The notes under the pieces are model-generated. The model did no database searches. It had not been told where the DNA came from and saw only the letters and a list, made by a program, of their open reading frames with translations. A stretch of 42,876 nt of DNA from a virus (Duplodnaviria > Heunggongvirae > Uroviricota > Caudoviricetes). The stretch lies in IMG/VR virus record IMGVR_UViG_2541047698_000015, one strand, 5' to 3'. A program made the position numbers and the translations under genes. This document shows, one piece after another, positions 25,224 to 41,985 of the stretch. Numbering within the stretch: position 1 is the stretch's first letter; every line of letters starts with the position of its first letter.

Positions 25224-25670
25224 GGAGTTTACTCACATCTGACAAAATCAATATAAACAGCCCCTCCGGAGAGGGGCTGGAGAGTGGCGCTATGTGCCAT
25301 TGCATGGTGCCGGGTGCCTCCCGGTGAATTCAGTACCAGCACCTGAATCCGCGATTATCCCATATACCTACTCGCTGATTGCCCCTCCGCACAGGGGGAT
25401 TCACCATGCCAGTTTCTTTTAACAAACTCCCCGCAAACCAGACAACAGTCAACCGCCTGAATTGTGAAGTATTTAAAAATTTCTCCCGCTAACTGATACC
25501 CGGCTAACAGTCTGGCGTTTTCTTTTTCAGCAACGGGAAAGCAACAACCACCACACCCGCCACCAGCACACCGTCAGCCAGCACTGACATTATCCGGCTG
25601 CTGCAATGCCACTCACAAAAACAGTAAGCAATCACTTTTTACCGTAACAAGTGATAATCCAGATATGTAT

Positions 25671-26024: not shown

Positions 26025-26137
26025 TACTTAACAGAACTTTTATTTTTGACAAACATATAATATTTTCAACAATATCCTGAGCCAGGTATATTTCAGTATA
26101 AGGCTCTGCCGGAAGGAATCTGGAAGAATGAATATAG

Positions 26138-26211
26138 CGCGCTGTACTGGATTCGAACCAGTGACCGATTGCTTAGAAGGCAATTGCTCTGTCCGGCTGA
26201 GCTAACAACGC
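26138..26211 (-). tRNA. tRNA-Arg (anticodon UCU), argN/argO-like; CCA end not encoded
   Basis: Cloverleaf readable by hand: acceptor GCGUUGU/ACAGCGC, D-arm AGCTCAGCCGGACAGAGC, anticodon loop CUUCUAA, T-arm ACTGG-TTCGAAT-CCAGT. Confidence 0.8.
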
Positions 26212-26311: not shown

Positions 26312-26387
26312 TGGTGGCCCTTGCTGGATTTGAACCAGCGACCTGGCGATTATGAGTCGCTCGCTCTCACCACTGAGCTAAAGGGCC
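26312..26387 (-). tRNA. tRNA with CAU anticodon (Ile2-lysidine type, ileZ-like; Met not excluded)
   Basis: GGCCCTTTAGCTCAGTGGTGAGAGCGAGCGACTCATAATCGCCAGGTCGCTGGTTCAAATCCAGCAAGGGCCACCA on minus; anticodon loop CUCAUAA; CCA encoded. Confidence 0.8.
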
Positions 26388-29128: not shown

Positions 29129-29380
29129 TTATTCTTCTGAAAAAGCAGAAAAGCCAGCTTTTATTCCGATCTCTTTCAATACCTGTAATGAAGTGACAAA
29201 CTCACCGTCGCGCAAGATAAATCCGTCCGTCACTCGGGCATCCACAAAATTAATTAACGCAGCCCCATTTTTTTGCAAACACACAATGCGGTAATGACTA
29301 ACAATATTTCCATTTTCAACGCACACAGCATAGAGGCCATCTTCACAAAAAATTTTACGCAGTTCTTCGATGTTCATCAT
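29129..29380 (-). CDS. hypothetical protein (83 aa; size and position as Rem in Qin)
   Basis: MMNIEELRKIFCEDGLYAVCVENGNIVSHYRIV...; name by position only. Confidence 0.4.
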   Translation of the reverse strand: MMNIEELRKIFCEDGLYAVCVENGNIVSHYRIVCLQKNGAALINFVDARVTDGFILRDGEFVTSLQVLKEIGIKAGFSAFSEE

Positions 29381-29496
29381 CAGAATCCTTCCGGATAATT
29401 AGCTCTCCCCTTTAAGGGACCATCCCTCTTATCCCTGCGCGCTACTTAAGTATTTTTGATTCTATTCCGGCACCGTCCAGAACTTCAAACGCGTTG

Positions 29497-29528
29497 AAAA
29501 TAAAAACAAAAACCCGCCGAAGCGGGTT
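29497..29528 (-). terminator. intrinsic terminator at the 3' end of hok mRNA
   Basis: Minus reads aacccgcttcggcgggtttttgttttt: GC stem, UUCG loop, U-run. Confidence 0.7.
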
Positions 29529-29596
29529 AAGTGCGGGTGCGTTGAGGATGCCTGCCACATCAGAGGTGGCGAGGGATTTCTCCCCCGCCGGGTCTC

Positions 29597-29752
29597 TTAC
29601 TCCTCAGGTTCGTAAGCTGTGAAGACAGCGACCTCCGTCTGGCCGGTTCGGATTCGTACCTCGCAGAGGTCTTTCCTCGTTACCAGTGCCGTCACTATGA
29701 CGGTTAAACAGATGACGATCAGGGCGATTAACATCGCCTTTTGCTGCTTCAT
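29597..29752 (-). CDS. hok: Hok-family type I toxin (51 aa)
   Basis: Hand translation of minus strand gives MKQQKAMLIALIVICLTVIVTALVTRKDLCEVRIRTGQTEVAVFTAYEPEE, a canonical Hok; not in the ORF track because it is under 60 aa. Confidence 0.9.
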   Translation of the reverse strand: MKQQKAMLIALIVICLTVIVTALVTRKDLCEVRIRTGQTEVAVFTAYEPEE

Positions 29753-29990
29753 AGCCTGCTTCTCCTTGACCTTTCGGTCCGTAAGAGGCTAATCTCTATG
29801 TGTCGCATAGATATGGCCTCAGATTAATGTTAAGCGTCTTGCAGGACGCGTAATGTTAACTGGGGCTTTTCTCTATCTGCCTTTTGGTGTTCATGCCTGA
29901 GACAGATAGCCTCAAGCACCCGCAGTTATTCTACTTAACTAAGATTTCCCCGCAAACCGTTTTTGTCCGGCACAGTAAATATCCAACTAA
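29753..29990 (-). promoter_or_regulatory. hok leader region with short upstream leader ORF whose TGA overlaps the hok ATG (mok-like coupling); an antisense Sok-like RNA is expected here but not delimited
   Basis: Leader ORF MRHIEISLLRTERSRRSRL ends in cTATGAag; inverted repeats in the leader. Confidence 0.45.
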
Positions 29991-30010
29991 ACCAATGGCG
30001 TTCGCTGTAT

Positions 30011-30190
30011 TTACCGCCAGTATTCAATGCACATGACCGCCATGAACACCCCTAAAAAAAGGGCATTTATATGTCCAAACATTAATATCAAAACATCAAT
30101 TTTTTCCATATACCTTGCTGTGAAGATGATGGGCATACATGATGCGAACAACCAGAACGCAACAAACAAAAACTGCAATGCGTTTTTCAT
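30011..30190 (-). CDS. small two-TM membrane protein (59 aa)
   Basis: MKNALQFLFVAFWLFASCMPIIFTARYMEKIDVLILMFGHINALFLGVFMAVMCIEYWR; G-rich SD (AGGGGGAA); in the AT-rich segment upstream of hok. Confidence 0.4.
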   Translation of the reverse strand: MKNALQFLFVAFWLFASCMPIIFTARYMEKIDVLILMFGHINALFLGVFMAVMCIEYWR

Positions 30191-30310
30191 TATTCCCCCT
30201 ACAATCAATGTGCAATAACATTTAAACACACCTCAATTTGGCCGGACATATAAATATCTAAACCAGAAAAAATCACTTACATAGCGTTACAAACTCTTTA
30301 GTCTAAATAT

Positions 30311-30826
30311 TCATCGTAAAACATCCTCCACGCTTATCAGTCCATTTCGTTTCAGGTAATCCATCGCCTTCTCCGGTAATTTGCAGTCCGGCTGAGCTTT
30401 TTTCAGTTGACTGACCAGTCGTTTAACCCACATTGTTAATTCGCTAACCTGATTGCCGGATGCTGGTGGATTGTCGGCTTTACCCAGAATGGCAGCGCAG
30501 CAGGCCTCTCTGAGCACCCAGTCAACAGCATCCTTCCATGCTCCTGTTTCGACTGGCGGATTCTCACGCTTTACCTGTTCATAAAAGCGCACGGCTTTAA
30601 CCAGTCCTTCTGATGTCACCGGGACTGGCGGGCCGATGAATAAGGCCTGAATTTCATAGTTCGGCCTGTCGTTACAATCCTCTTTTGTCGGTACATATTT
30701 CCAGTCACCAGCCCACGGCTTCCCCTGAAAGTCTGTAACGTCTTTTTTCACGTAGCGATATCGCCATGCAACTGGTTTTGCCTGCCCTGCCGTTTCATGC
30801 CCTTCCTGATAATTAATCTCGCTCAT
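30311..30826 (-). CDS. hypothetical protein (171 aa)
   Basis: Clean ORF, start overlaps the stop of an upstream 37-codon ORF (ATGA); no family recognised. Confidence 0.55.
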   Translation of the reverse strand: MSEINYQEGHETAGQAKPVAWRYRYVKKDVTDFQGKPWAGDWKYVPTKEDCNDRPNYEIQALFIGPPVPVTSEGLVKAVRFYEQVKRENPPVETGAWKDAVDWVLREACCAAILGKADNPPASGNQVSELTMWVKRLVSQLKKAQPDCKLPEKAMDYLKRNGLISVEDVLR

Positions 30827-37379: not shown

Positions 37380-37438
37380 CCATGTGTAGTCTTTGGTGGC
37401 ATCAGTTCTACTCCGTGACTGCTCTGCCGCCCTTTTTA
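37380..37438 (+). ncRNA. dicF: DicF-like small RNA (ftsZ-targeting sRNA family) with terminator-like 3' end
   Basis: TCTTTGGTGGCATCAGTTCTACTCCGTGACTGCTCTGCCGCCCTTTTT matches the 3' two-thirds of E. coli DicF as I recall it; 5' seed region differs. Confidence 0.6.
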
Positions 37439-40614: not shown

Positions 40615-40818
40615 ATGAGTAGCTTATTTTTAACCGAAGATGAATTGCTAATATTAACGGGCTGCAAATATGCAAGCCACCAGCGAAAATGGTTAACGGA
40701 AAACGGGCTTCCGTTCTATACCAATCGTAGTGGCAAACCGATTGTCAGCCGGGATCTATTTACCTGCAATAAAACTTTACCACCACGCGAGGTAGAGCCG
40801 AATTTTGGTGCAATCTGA
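40615..40818 (+). CDS. xis: excisionase (Xis-like small DNA-binding protein)
   Basis: 67 aa directly upstream of int with TGATG stop/start overlap; sequence unlike lambda Xis, call is positional. Confidence 0.65.
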   Translation: MSSLFLTEDELLILTGCKYASHQRKWLTENGLPFYTNRSGKPIVSRDLFTCNKTLPPREVEPNFGAI

Positions 40819-41843
40819 TGGGAAGACGAAGGAAAAATCCTGAACACGAAAAACTACCTCCAAATGTATATCCAAATAAATATAGTTATGTATGGAAACC
40901 AACATCCAGAGAATCTGTCACACTAACCGCCATCAAGGATGGTTTAGCTGCTTTATGGAAAAGGTATGAGGAAACTGTAAATAATCGCGATCGCGCAATG
41001 ACATTCGGTCGCTTGTGGGAAAAATTCCTCGCCAGCGCCTATTACAGTGACCTCAGTCCAAGAACACAAAAAGATTATCTGCAACATCAAAAAAAGTTGC
41101 TTGCCGTATTCGGTAAGGTGCCGGCAGATTCCATAAAACCAGAACACATCCGTCGATACATGGACCAGAGAGGGGGGCAGAGTAAAACGCAAGCCAACCA
41201 TGAAAAAAGCAGTATGTCCCGCGTTTACAGTTGGGGATATGAGCGAGGGTACGTGAAGGCTAACCCATGTGCAGGTGTAAGTAAATTCAAGGCCAAAAAC
41301 CGCGAACGATATGTAACCGACAAAGAATACCAGGCAGTATTAAGCGTTGCACCTCTTCCTGTTTTTATCGCAATGGAAATTGCCTATCTGTGTGCAGCGA
41401 GGGTTTCCGATGTGTTATCGCTGAAATGGGAGCAGATTGGAAACGACGGGATCTTTATCCAGCAAGGGAAAACAGGGAAAAAACAGATAAAAGCATGGAG
41501 TCCACGATTACAGGCGGCGATCGAAAAAGCAAAACAGTTACCAACATCCGCCTATGTAATCAGCAATCAATACGGCAACCGATATATGTACAAAGGCTTT
41601 AACGAAATGTGGGTAGAAGCAAGAAATCGCGCAGGCAAAATTTCAGGTATTTTAACCGACTTCACCTTTCATGATCTGAAGGCGAAAGGAATTTCAGACT
41701 ATGAAGGAAGCAGCCGGGATAAGCAACTTTTCTCTGGTCACAAAACCGAGGGGCAAGTGCTAATCTATGACAGGAAGGTTAAAGTTTCACCGACACTTGA
41801 TGTCCCGTTACCTGAAAATATTCCAAGAAAATATTCCAAGTAA
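40818..41843 (+). CDS. int: tyrosine-type site-specific integrase
   Basis: 341 aa with C-terminal catalytic region (…HDLKAKGISDY…GHKTEGQVLIYDRK); adjacent to the tRNA-Ser 3' end. Confidence 0.9.
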   Translation: MGRRRKNPEHEKLPPNVYPNKYSYVWKPTSRESVTLTAIKDGLAALWKRYEETVNNRDRAMTFGRLWEKFLASAYYSDLSPRTQKDYLQHQKKLLAVFGKVPADSIKPEHIRRYMDQRGGQSKTQANHEKSSMSRVYSWGYERGYVKANPCAGVSKFKAKNRERYVTDKEYQAVLSVAPLPVFIAMEIAYLCAARVSDVLSLKWEQIGNDGIFIQQGKTGKKQIKAWSPRLQAAIEKAKQLPTSAYVISNQYGNRYMYKGFNEMWVEARNRAGKISGILTDFTFHDLKAKGISDYEGSSRDKQLFSGHKTEGQVLIYDRKVKVSPTLDVPLPENIPRKYSK

Positions 41844-41895: not shown

Positions 41896-41985
41896 TGGCG
41901 GAGAGAGGGGGATTTGAACCCCCGGTGGAGTTGCCCCCACTCCGGTTTTCGAGACCGGTCCGTTCAGCCGCTCCGGCATCTCTCC
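41896..41985 (-). tRNA. serU: tRNA-Ser (anticodon CGA), serU-like; integration target
   Basis: Minus strand reads GGAGAGATGCCGGAGCGGCTGAACGGACCGGTCTCGAAAACCGGAGTGGGGGCAACTCCACCGGGGGTTCAAATCCCCCTCTCTCCGCCA (90 nt, long variable arm, CCA encoded). Confidence 0.9.

What the first reader, a model, noticed from the sequence alone, without database searches (positions are those of the whole stretch)
29480..30200. Hok-type toxin locus plus an adjacent small two-TM protein gene
A canonical 51-aa Hok is encoded with its 3' terminator and a short leader ORF coupled by an ATGA overlap; it is missed by the ORF track because of size. Just upstream on the same strand is a 59-aa two-TM protein with a strong SD. 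Unlike Qin, where hokD follows relBE, no relBE is present here, so the regulatory logic may differ.
Basis: partly seen in the sequence, partly recalled or inferred. Interest (0 to 1): 0.45.

Follow-up and report, generated by a model that had tools for sequence, protein, structure and literature searches.

The report
Prophage hok/sok toxin locus plus small membrane gene
This is an ordinary, already-annotated Hok/Sok toxin–antitoxin locus in a lambda-like prophage, and the 59-codon gene just upstream is a real but unannotated small membrane protein of unknown function that nearly always travels with hok.

Summary
The 51-aa Hok (29597-29752) is identical to RefSeq HokD. It has an intrinsic terminator and a 19-codon leader ORF whose TGA overlaps the hok ATG. 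A 59-aa two-helix ORF (30011-30190) lies upstream, and the window holds no relBE.

The hok part is a complete canonical hok/sok/mok type I toxin–antitoxin locus. The Rfam hok-leader/sok model matches full length. The 5' tac and 3' fbi elements pair in the predicted fold. An antisense Sok gene sits where expected. The locus lies between the replication genes and Q of a Qin-like lambdoid prophage. K-12 Qin's relBE-hokD is the derived state, in which the whole leader has been replaced. The closest tested relative is hokW-sokW of phage Sp5.

The 59-aa ORF is probably a real gene. A 44%-identical, gap-free paralog of the same length exists, with pN 0.33 against pS 0.72 (p=1.6e-4) in that frame only. 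About 98% of its copies sit directly upstream of a hok locus. It matches no known family, and PGAP annotated nothing over it in any of the 40 genome hits listed. Recent polymorphisms are all nonsynonymous. Its function is unknown. Overall the finding is known biology with a small annotation gap.

The parts
29928..29955 (-). Putative hok promoter: -35 TTGCGG (29955-29950), 16-nt spacer, -10 TAGAAT (29933-29928), 6 nt before the inferred mRNA start
   Evidence: Read from the sequence. It matches 8 of 12 consensus positions, so the strict scan did not call it. The block AAAAACGGTTTGCGG...GTTAAGTAGAAT is conserved in every leader-bearing locus aligned. Inferred, not mapped.
29501..29921 (-). Full-length hok mRNA, about 420 nt; 5' end placed by position 1 of the Rfam model, 3' end at the terminator T-run
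   Evidence: MFE -168.9 kcal/mol, z = -7.35 against shuffles, with the 5' and 3' ends paired.
29750..29921 (-). hok mRNA 5' leader, matching Rfam RF01794 'sok antitoxin (CssrC)' over model positions 1-157 and ending at the hok AUG
   Evidence: 106.7 bits against a gathering score of 59, E=2.1e-23.
29910..29921 (-). tac element (GGGUGCUUGAGG) at the 5' end of the mRNA
   Evidence: Pairs with 29535-29547 in the MFE of the full-length RNA. Forms a local hairpin instead when the 3' end is removed.
29817..29820 (-). mok Shine-Dalgarno (GAGG), 8 nt before the mok AUG
   Evidence: Sequence. It corresponds to the GAGG mok SD described for R1 (PMC9841398).
29749..29808 (-). mok-type leader ORF of 19 codons; its stop TGA overlaps the hok ATG (ATGA)
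   Evidence: The same configuration occurs in 14 of 88 loci chosen by Hok and in 46 of the 79 ORF59-linked loci scored for mok offset.
29762..29766 (-). hok Shine-Dalgarno (AGGAG), 9 nt before the ATG
   Evidence: Sequence. It lies inside the last 14 nt that K-12 Qin still shares with the window.
29597..29752 (-). hok (HokD-type) toxin CDS, 51 aa, with one N-terminal transmembrane helix, Cys15 and Cys30
   Evidence: Also matches PHROG 251 at E=2.8e-33.
29611..29614 (-). UACG motif at Tyr47 (TAC 29614-29612), a candidate TadA A-to-I editing site that would recode Tyr to Cys
   Evidence: Sequence. Editing at this cysteine position in hokD mRNA is stated in bioRxiv 10.1101/2025.08.07.668861. Not tested here.
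29535..29547 (-). fbi element (CCUCAACGCACCC), complementary to tac with a one-base bulge
   Evidence: Paired with 29910-29921 in the MFE.
29501..29528 (-). Intrinsic terminator of hok mRNA: 7-bp stem, 4-nt loop, T-run
29766..29795 (+). Putative Sok promoter: -35 TTGACC (29766-29771), 18-nt spacer, -10 TAATCT (29790-29795)
   Evidence: Read from the sequence. Placed by homology to the R1 Sok promoter as I recall it. The strict consensus scan did not call it. Inferred.
29802..29872 (+). Predicted Sok antisense RNA, about 70 nt: a single-stranded 5' end complementary to the mok AUG and SD, then a long hairpin and GGGGCUUUUCUCU
   Evidence: Fold -29.8 kcal/mol, z = -4.41. It is fully complementary to the hok leader by position. 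The ends are not mapped.
30011..30190 (-). ORF59: gene for a 59-aa helical-hairpin (two-TM) protein, MKNALQFLFVAFWLFASCMPIIFTARYMEKIDVLILMFGHINALFLGVFMAVMCIEYWR
   Evidence: Its stop lies 89 nt upstream of the hok mRNA start.
30195..30199 (-). Shine-Dalgarno of ORF59 (GGGGG; GGAGG in 5 of 12 alleles), 4 nt before the ATG
   Evidence: variable site at 30197.
30054..30060 (-). T7 homopolymer run inside ORF59 (codons 44-46), a frameshift hotspot
   Evidence: 55-aa frameshift variants P0020, P0023 and P0025 diverge exactly here. The run is one T shorter in the decayed copy L008.

Best explanation
Window 29501-29955 (minus strand) is a complete hok/sok/mok-type type I toxin–antitoxin locus of the HokD/HokW lineage. 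It sits in the early-right (nin) region of a Qin-like lambdoid prophage, between the replication genes and the Q antiterminator.

Mechanism, inferred from the R1 paradigm and from hokW-sokW rather than shown for this locus:
- A modest promoter makes a hok mRNA of about 420 nt. Pairing of its 5' end (tac) with its 3' end (fbi) keeps it translationally silent.
- Slow 3' trimming removes fbi. The 5' end refolds locally, and the SD and AUG of a 19-codon leader ORF (mok) become available.
- Ribosomes translating mok run through the hok SD and stop at a UGA that overlaps the hok AUG (AUGA). Hok synthesis is therefore coupled to mok translation.
- A Sok RNA of about 70 nt, made from the plus strand, pairs across the mok SD and AUG. 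This blocks mok, and so hok, and marks the duplex for cleavage.
- When Sok falls, the 51-aa Hok inserts into the inner membrane and depolarises the cell. Sok could fall through loss of the element, a transcription stop, or prophage induction, as was shown for hokW-sokW.

Directly upstream (30011-30190, same strand) is a genuine but unannotated gene for a 59-aa two-helix membrane protein, ORF59. It moves with hok as one mosaic module. It would be transcribed with the early-right operon on induction. Its function is unknown, and a direct role in Hok biology is possible but untested.
For: Shown here for the hok locus:
- Hok matches Pfam HOK_GEF at 82.9 bits and is identical to RefSeq HokD.
- The Rfam RF01794 match is full length at 106.7 bits.
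- tac and fbi pair in the MFE with z = -7.35. The 5' end forms an alternative local hairpin once the 3' end is removed.
- The terminator is present.
- The 19-codon leader ORF ends in ATGA.
- The antisense hairpin plus U-run folds with z = -4.4.
- The context is lambdoid: HTH (HTH_3) repressor, P22-type Cro, YdaT, protein P, DUF1627, then DUF968, RusA and Q, all in hok's direction apart from the divergently transcribed repressor.
- No relBE is present, and K-12 homology ends 14 nt before the hok ATG.

From papers:
- In R1, mok translation is needed only up to the hok SD. R1 mok has 19 codons upstream of the hok AUG (PMC9841398).
- HokD peptide is toxic (bioRxiv 10.1101/2025.08.07.668861).
- hokW-sokW of Sp5 is a working type I TA. 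sokW RNA disappears on mitomycin C induction, and HokW then appears in the inner membrane and helps phage release (PMC8621323). Hok here is 46/51 identical to the Hok of Stx2 phage I, which I take to be HokW, a label from memory.

For ORF59:
- A gap-free 59-aa paralog is 44% identical.
- pS is 0.72 against pN 0.33, Fisher p=1.6e-4. Only this frame is stop-free and gives the signal.
- AlphaFold2 predicts two helices.
- The SD is kept as GGGGG or GGAGG.
- 103 of 105 sampled copies are intact, and 90 of 92 are followed by a hok leader.
Against: - No transcript, protein or toxicity data exist for this locus, so every mechanistic step is by homology.
- Both promoters are weaker than the scan's consensus threshold and were not called. 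The Sok -10, TAATCT, matches only 3 of 6 positions, and the spacer is 18 nt.
- Chromosomal hok loci of K-12, E. coli C and ECOR24 were reported unable to mediate post-segregational killing (cited in the bioRxiv paper).
- MFE folds of the truncated mRNA did not clearly show the mok SD being freed.
- For ORF59, all 9 polymorphisms seen within E. coli are nonsynonymous.
- ORF59 matches no Pfam, NCBIfam, PHROG or PADLOC family.
- PGAP annotated nothing over it in the 40 genome hits listed.
- It is frameshifted in L008 and at its T7 run in some assemblies.
- Only 22 of 88 hok loci carry it.
Confidence: 0.85

Rival explanations
1. The hok/sok locus is sequence-intact but functionally silent. It would be a passenger relic like the K-12 chromosomal hok loci, contributing neither killing, prophage stabilisation nor lysis.
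For: [quoted passage not shown]
- Both promoters here fall below the scan's consensus threshold.
- Copies in some genomes are split by an IS or truncated, so loss is tolerated.
Against: - Every regulatory element is intact and in register.
- In loci chosen by ORF59, not by Hok, 80 of 92 have an intact 51-aa hok, mostly with the identical protein.
- The closely related hokW-sokW is experimentally active in its native prophage (PMC8621323).
Confidence: 0.12
2. ORF59 is not a gene. It would be a chance open frame in an AT-rich spacer between the upstream 171-aa gene (PHROG 660) and the hok promoter, conserved only because the whole module is young.
For: - Within E. coli there are 9 nonsynonymous and 0 synonymous polymorphisms.
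- No family matches in four HMM libraries.
- PGAP annotated nothing over it in the 40 genome hits listed.
- The T7 run gives frameshifted variants, and the ORF is broken in L008.
- No promoter of its own was found.
Against: - The paralog P0042 is 59% identical in DNA and 44% in protein. It has the same start, the same stop and no indels, while the flanks cannot be aligned.
- pN/pS is 0.46 uncorrected and dN/dS about 0.19 after Jukes-Cantor correction, with p=1.6e-4, in this frame only. The other five frames have 2-10 stops.
- Replacements are conservative, and a two-helix hairpin is predicted.
- 103 of 105 copies are intact.
Confidence: 0.2
3. ORF59 is a functional partner of Hok, for example a membrane modulator or antagonist of Hok insertion, or a second membrane-active effector. 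The prophage module would then be a three-part system.
For: - 90 of 92 ORF59 copies are followed within 200 nt by a hok leader.
- The diverged paralog also sits directly upstream of a hok fragment, so the linkage is old.
- Other prophages carry different small one-TM ORFs of 27 and 34 aa in the same slot just upstream of the hok promoter.
Against: - Only 22 of 88 hok loci with the identical Hok protein carry ORF59, so Hok does not need it.
- The paralog remains intact in 1045 genomes beside a truncated, dead hok.
- Linkage can be explained by common descent of one mosaic block.
- No sequence link to any toxin or immunity family was found.
Confidence: 0.12

Closest known systems
hokW-sokW of Sakai prophage 5 (Stx2 phage), E. 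coli O157:H7 (PMC8621323)
   Same: - Both are lambdoid prophage-borne hok/sok loci.
- The 51-aa Hok is 46/51 identical to the Hok of Stx2 phage I. I take that to be the HokW type; the label is from memory.
- The leader aligns base for base except for a short variable block.
- The promoter block, tac and fbi are the same.
- By inference the role is the same: Sok is lost and Hok is made on prophage induction.
   Different: - The last five Hok residues differ: TAYEPEE against VDYESEK.
- The upstream AUG lies at -57 in the Stx2 phage and is in frame with hok, giving a 70-aa ORF that is annotated as such. Here it lies at -56 and gives a 19-codon ORF ending in ATGA.
- The block around the mok start, which is the Sok target, has a different sequence.
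- The upstream neighbour is a 27-aa one-TM ORF there, not ORF59.
hok/sok/mok of plasmid R1 (the paradigm; PMC9841398)
   Same: - The architecture is shared: hok mRNA with tac/fbi, a GAGG mok SD, a mok AUG with 19 codons before the hok AUG, antisense Sok over the mok start, and a terminator after fbi.
- The Rfam model built on this family matches full length.
   Different: - R1 mok is 70 aa and overlaps hok in the +1 frame. Here mok stops at the hok AUG.
- R1 is on a plasmid and acts in post-segregational killing. This locus is on a prophage.
hokD (relF) of the K-12 Qin prophage, third gene of the relBEF operon
   Same: - K-12 Qin and the window share about 90% DNA identity from ydfU through rem and hokD to 14 nt upstream of the hok ATG.
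- Qin-type relE-hokD loci (L040, L044) encode the identical Hok protein.
- The flanking rem and DUF968 genes are the same.
   Different: - K-12 lacks the hok promoter, tac, mok and the Sok gene. relBE lies there instead.
- ORF59 is absent from the K-12 Qin segment examined.
- In ATCC 8739 Qin, the ORF59-promoter-leader part survives as an orphan. It is separated from hokD by an ISNCY element, ydfW, flxA, ydfV and relBE.
ORF59 paralog P0042 in the ttcA-uspF prophage remnant of E. coli
   Same: - It is 59 aa, 44% identical and gap-free.
- It shares the motifs W..SC.PII.T, LMFGH.NAL and IE.WR.
- It lies on the same strand directly upstream of hok sequence.
- Nothing was annotated over it in the 12 genome hits listed.
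   Different: - It sits in a decayed remnant, with a partial integrase and a partial DUF1627 gene.
- The adjacent hok keeps only codons of about 23-45 and has no leader or Sok.

Membership tests
hok/sok/mok type I toxin–antitoxin (Hok/Gef family) | Toxin ORF of about 50 aa belonging to the Hok/Gef protein family | tested here: met
   PF01848 at 82.9 bits against a cut-off of 22. PHROG 251 at E=2.8e-33. Identical to RefSeq HokD. NCBIfam Hok models are hit below their curated cut-offs (48.5 against 73), and PGAP still names the protein HokD.
hok/sok/mok type I toxin–antitoxin (Hok/Gef family) | Conserved structured 5' leader of hok mRNA | tested here: met
   RF01794 matches model positions 1-157 of 157 at 106.7 bits, against a gathering score of 59.
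hok/sok/mok type I toxin–antitoxin (Hok/Gef family) | Long-range tac (5') and fbi (3') pairing that closes the full-length mRNA | tested here: met
   29910-29921 pairs with 29535-29547 in the MFE, z = -7.35. This is in silico only.
hok/sok/mok type I toxin–antitoxin (Hok/Gef family) | Leader ORF (mok) with its own SD that is translated at least up to the hok SD | tested here: met
   GAGG lies 8 nt before an AUG, and 19 codons run through the hok SD to a UGA overlapping the hok AUG. The R1-style long overlap with hok is absent, but PMC9841398 shows it is dispensable.
hok/sok/mok type I toxin–antitoxin (Hok/Gef family) | Antisense Sok RNA gene with its own promoter and terminator, covering the mok translation start | tested here: inconclusive
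   A hairpin plus U-run is predicted on the plus strand, and the -35/-10 were placed by homology. The consensus scan called no promoter, and no transcript data exist.
hok/sok/mok type I toxin–antitoxin (Hok/Gef family) | Hok kills when Sok is removed, and Sok neutralises | not testable with these tools
   Literature only: HokD peptide is toxic, and hokW-sokW is active.
relBEF (relBE-hokD) operon arrangement of K-12 Qin | relB and relE immediately upstream of hokD, replacing the hok leader | tested here: not met
   tblastn of RelB and RelE gives no hit better than E=3.5. The window has a full leader where K-12 has relE.
Class II holin / pinholin (considered for ORF59) | Two TM helices plus a charged C-terminal tail, encoded in the lysis cassette next to the endolysin | tested here: not met
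   ORF59 lies in the early region upstream of Q. The near-identical prophage in strain EBJ003 (L001) has a separate class II holin and a lysozyme downstream of Q. The tail after helix 2 is at most 4 residues. There is no Pfam or PHROG holin match.
Type I toxin (considered for ORF59) | Small hydrophobic toxic peptide controlled by a cis- or trans-encoded antisense RNA | tested here: inconclusive
   The protein is hydrophobic (GRAVY 1.2). No antisense promoter or terminator was found over it, and no Rfam hit was found there. Toxicity was not tested.

The most novel reading that the evidence does not exclude
ORF59 and its paralog would define a new family of 59-aa two-helix inner-membrane proteins that are dedicated partners of prophage hok loci. 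They might tune or antagonise Hok insertion, or act with Hok in the early, pre-holin membrane damage seen for HokW. Many prophage hok/sok modules would then be three-gene systems. The other small one-TM ORFs found in the same slot in other prophages would be analogues.
Probability: 0.12. Interest if true: 0.6.

Novelty: already known. Interest (0 to 1): 0.27.

Why it matters
The hok/sok locus adds no new biology. It is a textbook type I toxin–antitoxin system in a place where such loci are known to be enriched.

Three smaller points have some value:
- ORF59 and its paralog are present in about 29% and 19% of complete E. coli genomes respectively. RefSeq annotated nothing over either in the hits listed, so this is a concrete annotation gap for small membrane proteins.
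- The intact arrangement here, together with the split one in ATCC 8739, shows how K-12's odd relBE-hokD operon arose. A segment carrying relBE was inserted into the hok leader.
- The leader ORF occurs in all three frame relations to hok among near-identical loci. This is natural-variation support for the R1 result that only translation up to the hok start matters.

Tried and rejected
- **Family searches for ORF59.** Pfam, NCBIfam, PHROGs and PADLOC gave no hit.
- **Word-indexed protein search.** It found only near-identical E. coli and Shigella copies. The exhaustive HMMER search was needed to find the paralog.
- **Fold search.** Searching the AlphaFold2 model against viral structures gave nothing at E<=1e-3, only generic helical hairpins. 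The afdb50 library was not available.
- **Within-species syn/nonsyn tests.** They were uninformative or pointed the other way: ORF59 showed 5:0 and then 9:0 nonsynonymous, and the paralog had 2 variable sites in 180 nt against 18 in 720 nt of flank.
- **Promoter scan.** It found no promoter for hok, Sok or ORF59 at its threshold, so promoters are placed by homology only.
- **RNAalifold on 44 distinct leaders.** It gave only 2 pairs with compensatory changes, because the variable block misaligns. I therefore rely on the Rfam covariance-model score, not on my own covariation count.
- **Truncated mRNA fold.** It did not cleanly show release of the mok SD.
- **Literature search.** ORF59 and paralog peptide strings gave 0 papers.
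- **Rejected ideas.** ORF59 as a holin: wrong location, no charged tail. Similarity between the ORF59 C-terminus and the 27-aa ORF of Stx2 phage I: too weak to call homology.
Full report
**Observation**

The ORF at 29597-29752 encodes a 51-aa protein. It matches Pfam HOK_GEF at E=1.2e-23 and PHROG 251 at E=2.8e-33. A genome that is 100% identical over 29400-30320 annotates it as hokD, WP_000813254.1.

A 7-bp GC-rich hairpin with a T-run at 29528-29501 is the only terminator-like site in the region. Upstream of hok, an AUG at 29808 opens a 19-codon frame (MRHIEISLLRTERSRRSRL). Its UGA overlaps the hok AUG, giving ATGA. Further upstream, 30011-30190 encodes a hydrophobic 59-aa protein preceded by GGGGG. 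RelB and RelE have no counterpart anywhere in the window.

**What the hok part is**

Rfam family RF01794, named 'sok' but modelling the hok-sense leader, matches 29750-29921 over its full length. The score is 106.7 bits against a gathering score of 59, and the match ends exactly at the hok AUG.

Folding the 422-nt RNA from 29921 to 29500 pairs the first 12 nt (GGGUGCUUGAGG, tac) with CCUCAACGCACCC at 29535-29547 (fbi), just before the terminator. The z-score is -7.35. Without the 3' end, the 5' end instead forms a local hairpin.

On the plus strand, 29802-29872 folds into a long hairpin followed by GGGGCUUUUCUCU, with z = -4.4. Its 5' part is complementary to the mok AUG and its GAGG. This is the expected Sok RNA.

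The hok promoter (TTGCGG-16-TAGAAT, 29955-29928) and the Sok promoter (TTGACC-18-TAATCT, 29766-29795) are placed by position and homology. The strict scan did not call either.

Neighbouring genes show a lambdoid prophage. They are an HTH (HTH_3) repressor, P22-type Cro, YdaT, protein P and DUF1627 upstream, and Rem, DUF968, RusA and Q downstream. All but the divergently transcribed repressor run in hok's direction. hok therefore lies in the early-right operon between replication and Q.

**Relation to Qin**

K-12 Qin matches the window at about 90% from ydfU through rem and hokD. Homology stops at 29766, which is 14 nt upstream of the hok ATG, and relE follows there.

In ATCC 8739 Qin, ORF59, the hok promoter and the entire leader are still present; Rfam scores the leader at 104 bits. 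They end at ...GGAGAAGCAGGCTAT and abut an ISNCY element, followed by ydfW, flxA, ydfV and relBE. The relBE-hokD arrangement is therefore derived, by insertion into the hok leader. The window shows the uninterrupted form.

**The leader ORF**

I examined 88 loci that encode the identical Hok protein.
- In 70, the homologous upstream AUG lies 57 nt before the hok AUG and is in frame. This gives a 70-aa ORF, as in the Stx2 phage I copy, which I take to be HokW.
- In 14, including the window, it lies at -56 and gives the 19-codon ATGA form.
- In one it lies at -58, the R1-like overlapping frame.
- Three lack the leader.

Among the 79 ORF59-linked loci scored for mok offset, the -56 form is the commonest, at 46 against 32 for -57. 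In R1, saturation mutagenesis showed that mok must be translated up to the hok SD but not beyond the hok start. R1 mok also has 19 codons before that start (PMC9841398). The window's short leader therefore fits the known mechanism and is not a new kind of control.

**ORF59**

*Evidence against coding.*
- It matches no Pfam, NCBIfam, PHROG or PADLOC family.
- PGAP annotated nothing over it in any of the 40 hits listed, although the region occurs in 1568 of 5426 complete E. coli genomes.
- All polymorphisms seen are nonsynonymous: 5:0 among 12 alleles, then 9:0 in a larger set.
- A T7 run gives frameshifted variants.
- It is broken in the decayed copy L008.

*Evidence for coding.*
- An exhaustive HMMER search found a second lineage, P0037/P0042. 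It is also 59 aa, 44% identical and gap-free, with the same start and stop.
- At the DNA level the two are 59% identical. pS is 0.72 and pN is 0.33, with Fisher p=1.6e-4 and Jukes-Cantor dN/dS of about 0.19.
- Only this frame is free of stops and gives the signal, and the flanks cannot be aligned.
- AlphaFold2 predicts two helices, 2-27 and 30-58, with pLDDT 73.6.
- The SD is GGGGG or GGAGG in all alleles.
- 103 of 105 sampled copies are intact.

I conclude it is a real gene (about 0.8). Its recent evolution looks relaxed or diversifying rather than strongly constrained.

**Linkage of ORF59 and hok**

Starting from hok, only 22 of 88 loci carry ORF59. Other prophages have a 27-aa or 34-aa one-TM ORF, or nothing, in that slot. 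Starting from ORF59, 90 of 92 loci with enough downstream sequence have a hok leader within 200 nt. Eighty have an intact hok about 258 nt downstream. Most of the rest are the IS-split Qin type.

The paralog lies in a decayed prophage remnant between ttcA and uspF in 1045 genomes. It is followed 55 nt later by a hok fragment covering codons of about 23-45 at 80% identity. So ORF59 almost never occurs without hok next to it, while hok does well without ORF59. Common descent of one mosaic block explains this. A functional tie is possible but unproven.

**Mechanism**

The most likely mechanism is the R1/hokW scheme set out under best explanation.

One inference of my own: hok and ORF59 point the same way as the induced early-right transcript. 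Read-through after induction would therefore supply extra sense leader RNA and collide with Sok transcription. That would fit the reported disappearance of sokW and the appearance of HokW about an hour before endolysin (PMC8621323).

A UACG at Tyr47 (29614-29611) matches the TadA editing context reported for hokD. It was not tested here.

**Novelty**

hok loci are known to be enriched in prophages (bioRxiv 10.1101/2025.08.07.668861). This exact locus is annotated in RefSeq, and its lineage has been tested (hokW-sokW). I rate it as already known. The only fresh element is ORF59, a small unannotated membrane-protein family of unknown function.

Noticed in passing
window 29790-29815 (mok start / Sok 5' end); loci L001-L089: Among loci with the identical Hok protein, leader variation is concentrated in the block around the mok AUG (the highest-entropy columns are the bases just after it), which is the target of Sok's 5' end. 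There are 15 sequence variants of the ~13-15 nt after the AUG. Genomes carry a median of 2 and up to 9 matches to the 921-nt query. This may mean Sok specificity classes limit cross-talk between co-resident copies. In one of two genomes with two sampled copies, the copies had different variants.
   Followed up: partly
window 29749-29808; L091 1573-1785; L008 3371-3577: The mok-equivalent AUG occurs in all three frame relations to hok among near-identical loci: -56 (19 aa, ATGA), -57 (in frame, 70-aa extended Hok, including the Stx2 phage I copy that I take to be hokW) and -58 (68-aa overlap, as in R1).
   Followed up: yes
L002 2640-2960 (E. coli ATCC 8739 Qin) against window 29751-29766: An orphan hok promoter with the sok/mok leader ends at GGCTAT and abuts an ISNCY element. 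hokD lies several kb away behind relBE. The 15 nt GGAGAAGCAGGCTAT occur at both break points. This looks like the insertion that created the relBE-hokD operon. The same junction is seen in about 9 metagenome or viral contigs.
   Followed up: partly
L093 5001-5180 and L099 (ttcA-uspF region of many E. coli): A 59-aa paralog of ORF59 stays intact in 1045 of 5426 genomes. It sits inside a decayed prophage remnant with a partial integrase, a partial DUF1627 gene and a truncated hok. Nothing was annotated over it in the 12 hits listed.
   Followed up: yes
L091 1939-2022; L042, L011 and L054 just upstream of hok; L038, L018, L033: Other prophages carry small one-TM ORFs in ORF59's slot. One is 27 aa (MTWPEA...), with its ATG overlapping the stop of the upstream PHROG 660 gene. 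Another is 34 aa (MSDDISLAMEG...). They match no family.
   Followed up: partly
window 25249-25438 (-): A full-length match to the Rfam sRNA STnc100 (132 bits against a gathering score of 47) lies downstream of Q and the tRNA genes.
   Followed up: no
window 37381-37432 (+): A DicF sRNA (58.3 bits against a gathering score of 48) lies in the early-left region, as in Qin.
   Followed up: no
window 26137-26211, 26312-26387 (-); 41896-41985 (-): tRNA-Arg(TCT) and tRNA-Met(CAT) genes lie just downstream of Q, as in Stx-type phages. A tRNA-Ser(CGA) lies next to the integrase gene (40818-41843) and is probably the attachment site.
   Followed up: no
window 29459-29488 (-): The only promoter-like site the scan called in the region (TTGAAG-18-TAGAAT) lies just after the hok terminator and upstream of rem (29129-29380). 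It may be a rem promoter.
   Followed up: no
phage records ON470619.1 and ON470612.1: In two GenBank phage records the feature annotated under the ORF59 match is named 'hornerin', an obviously spurious name.
   Followed up: no
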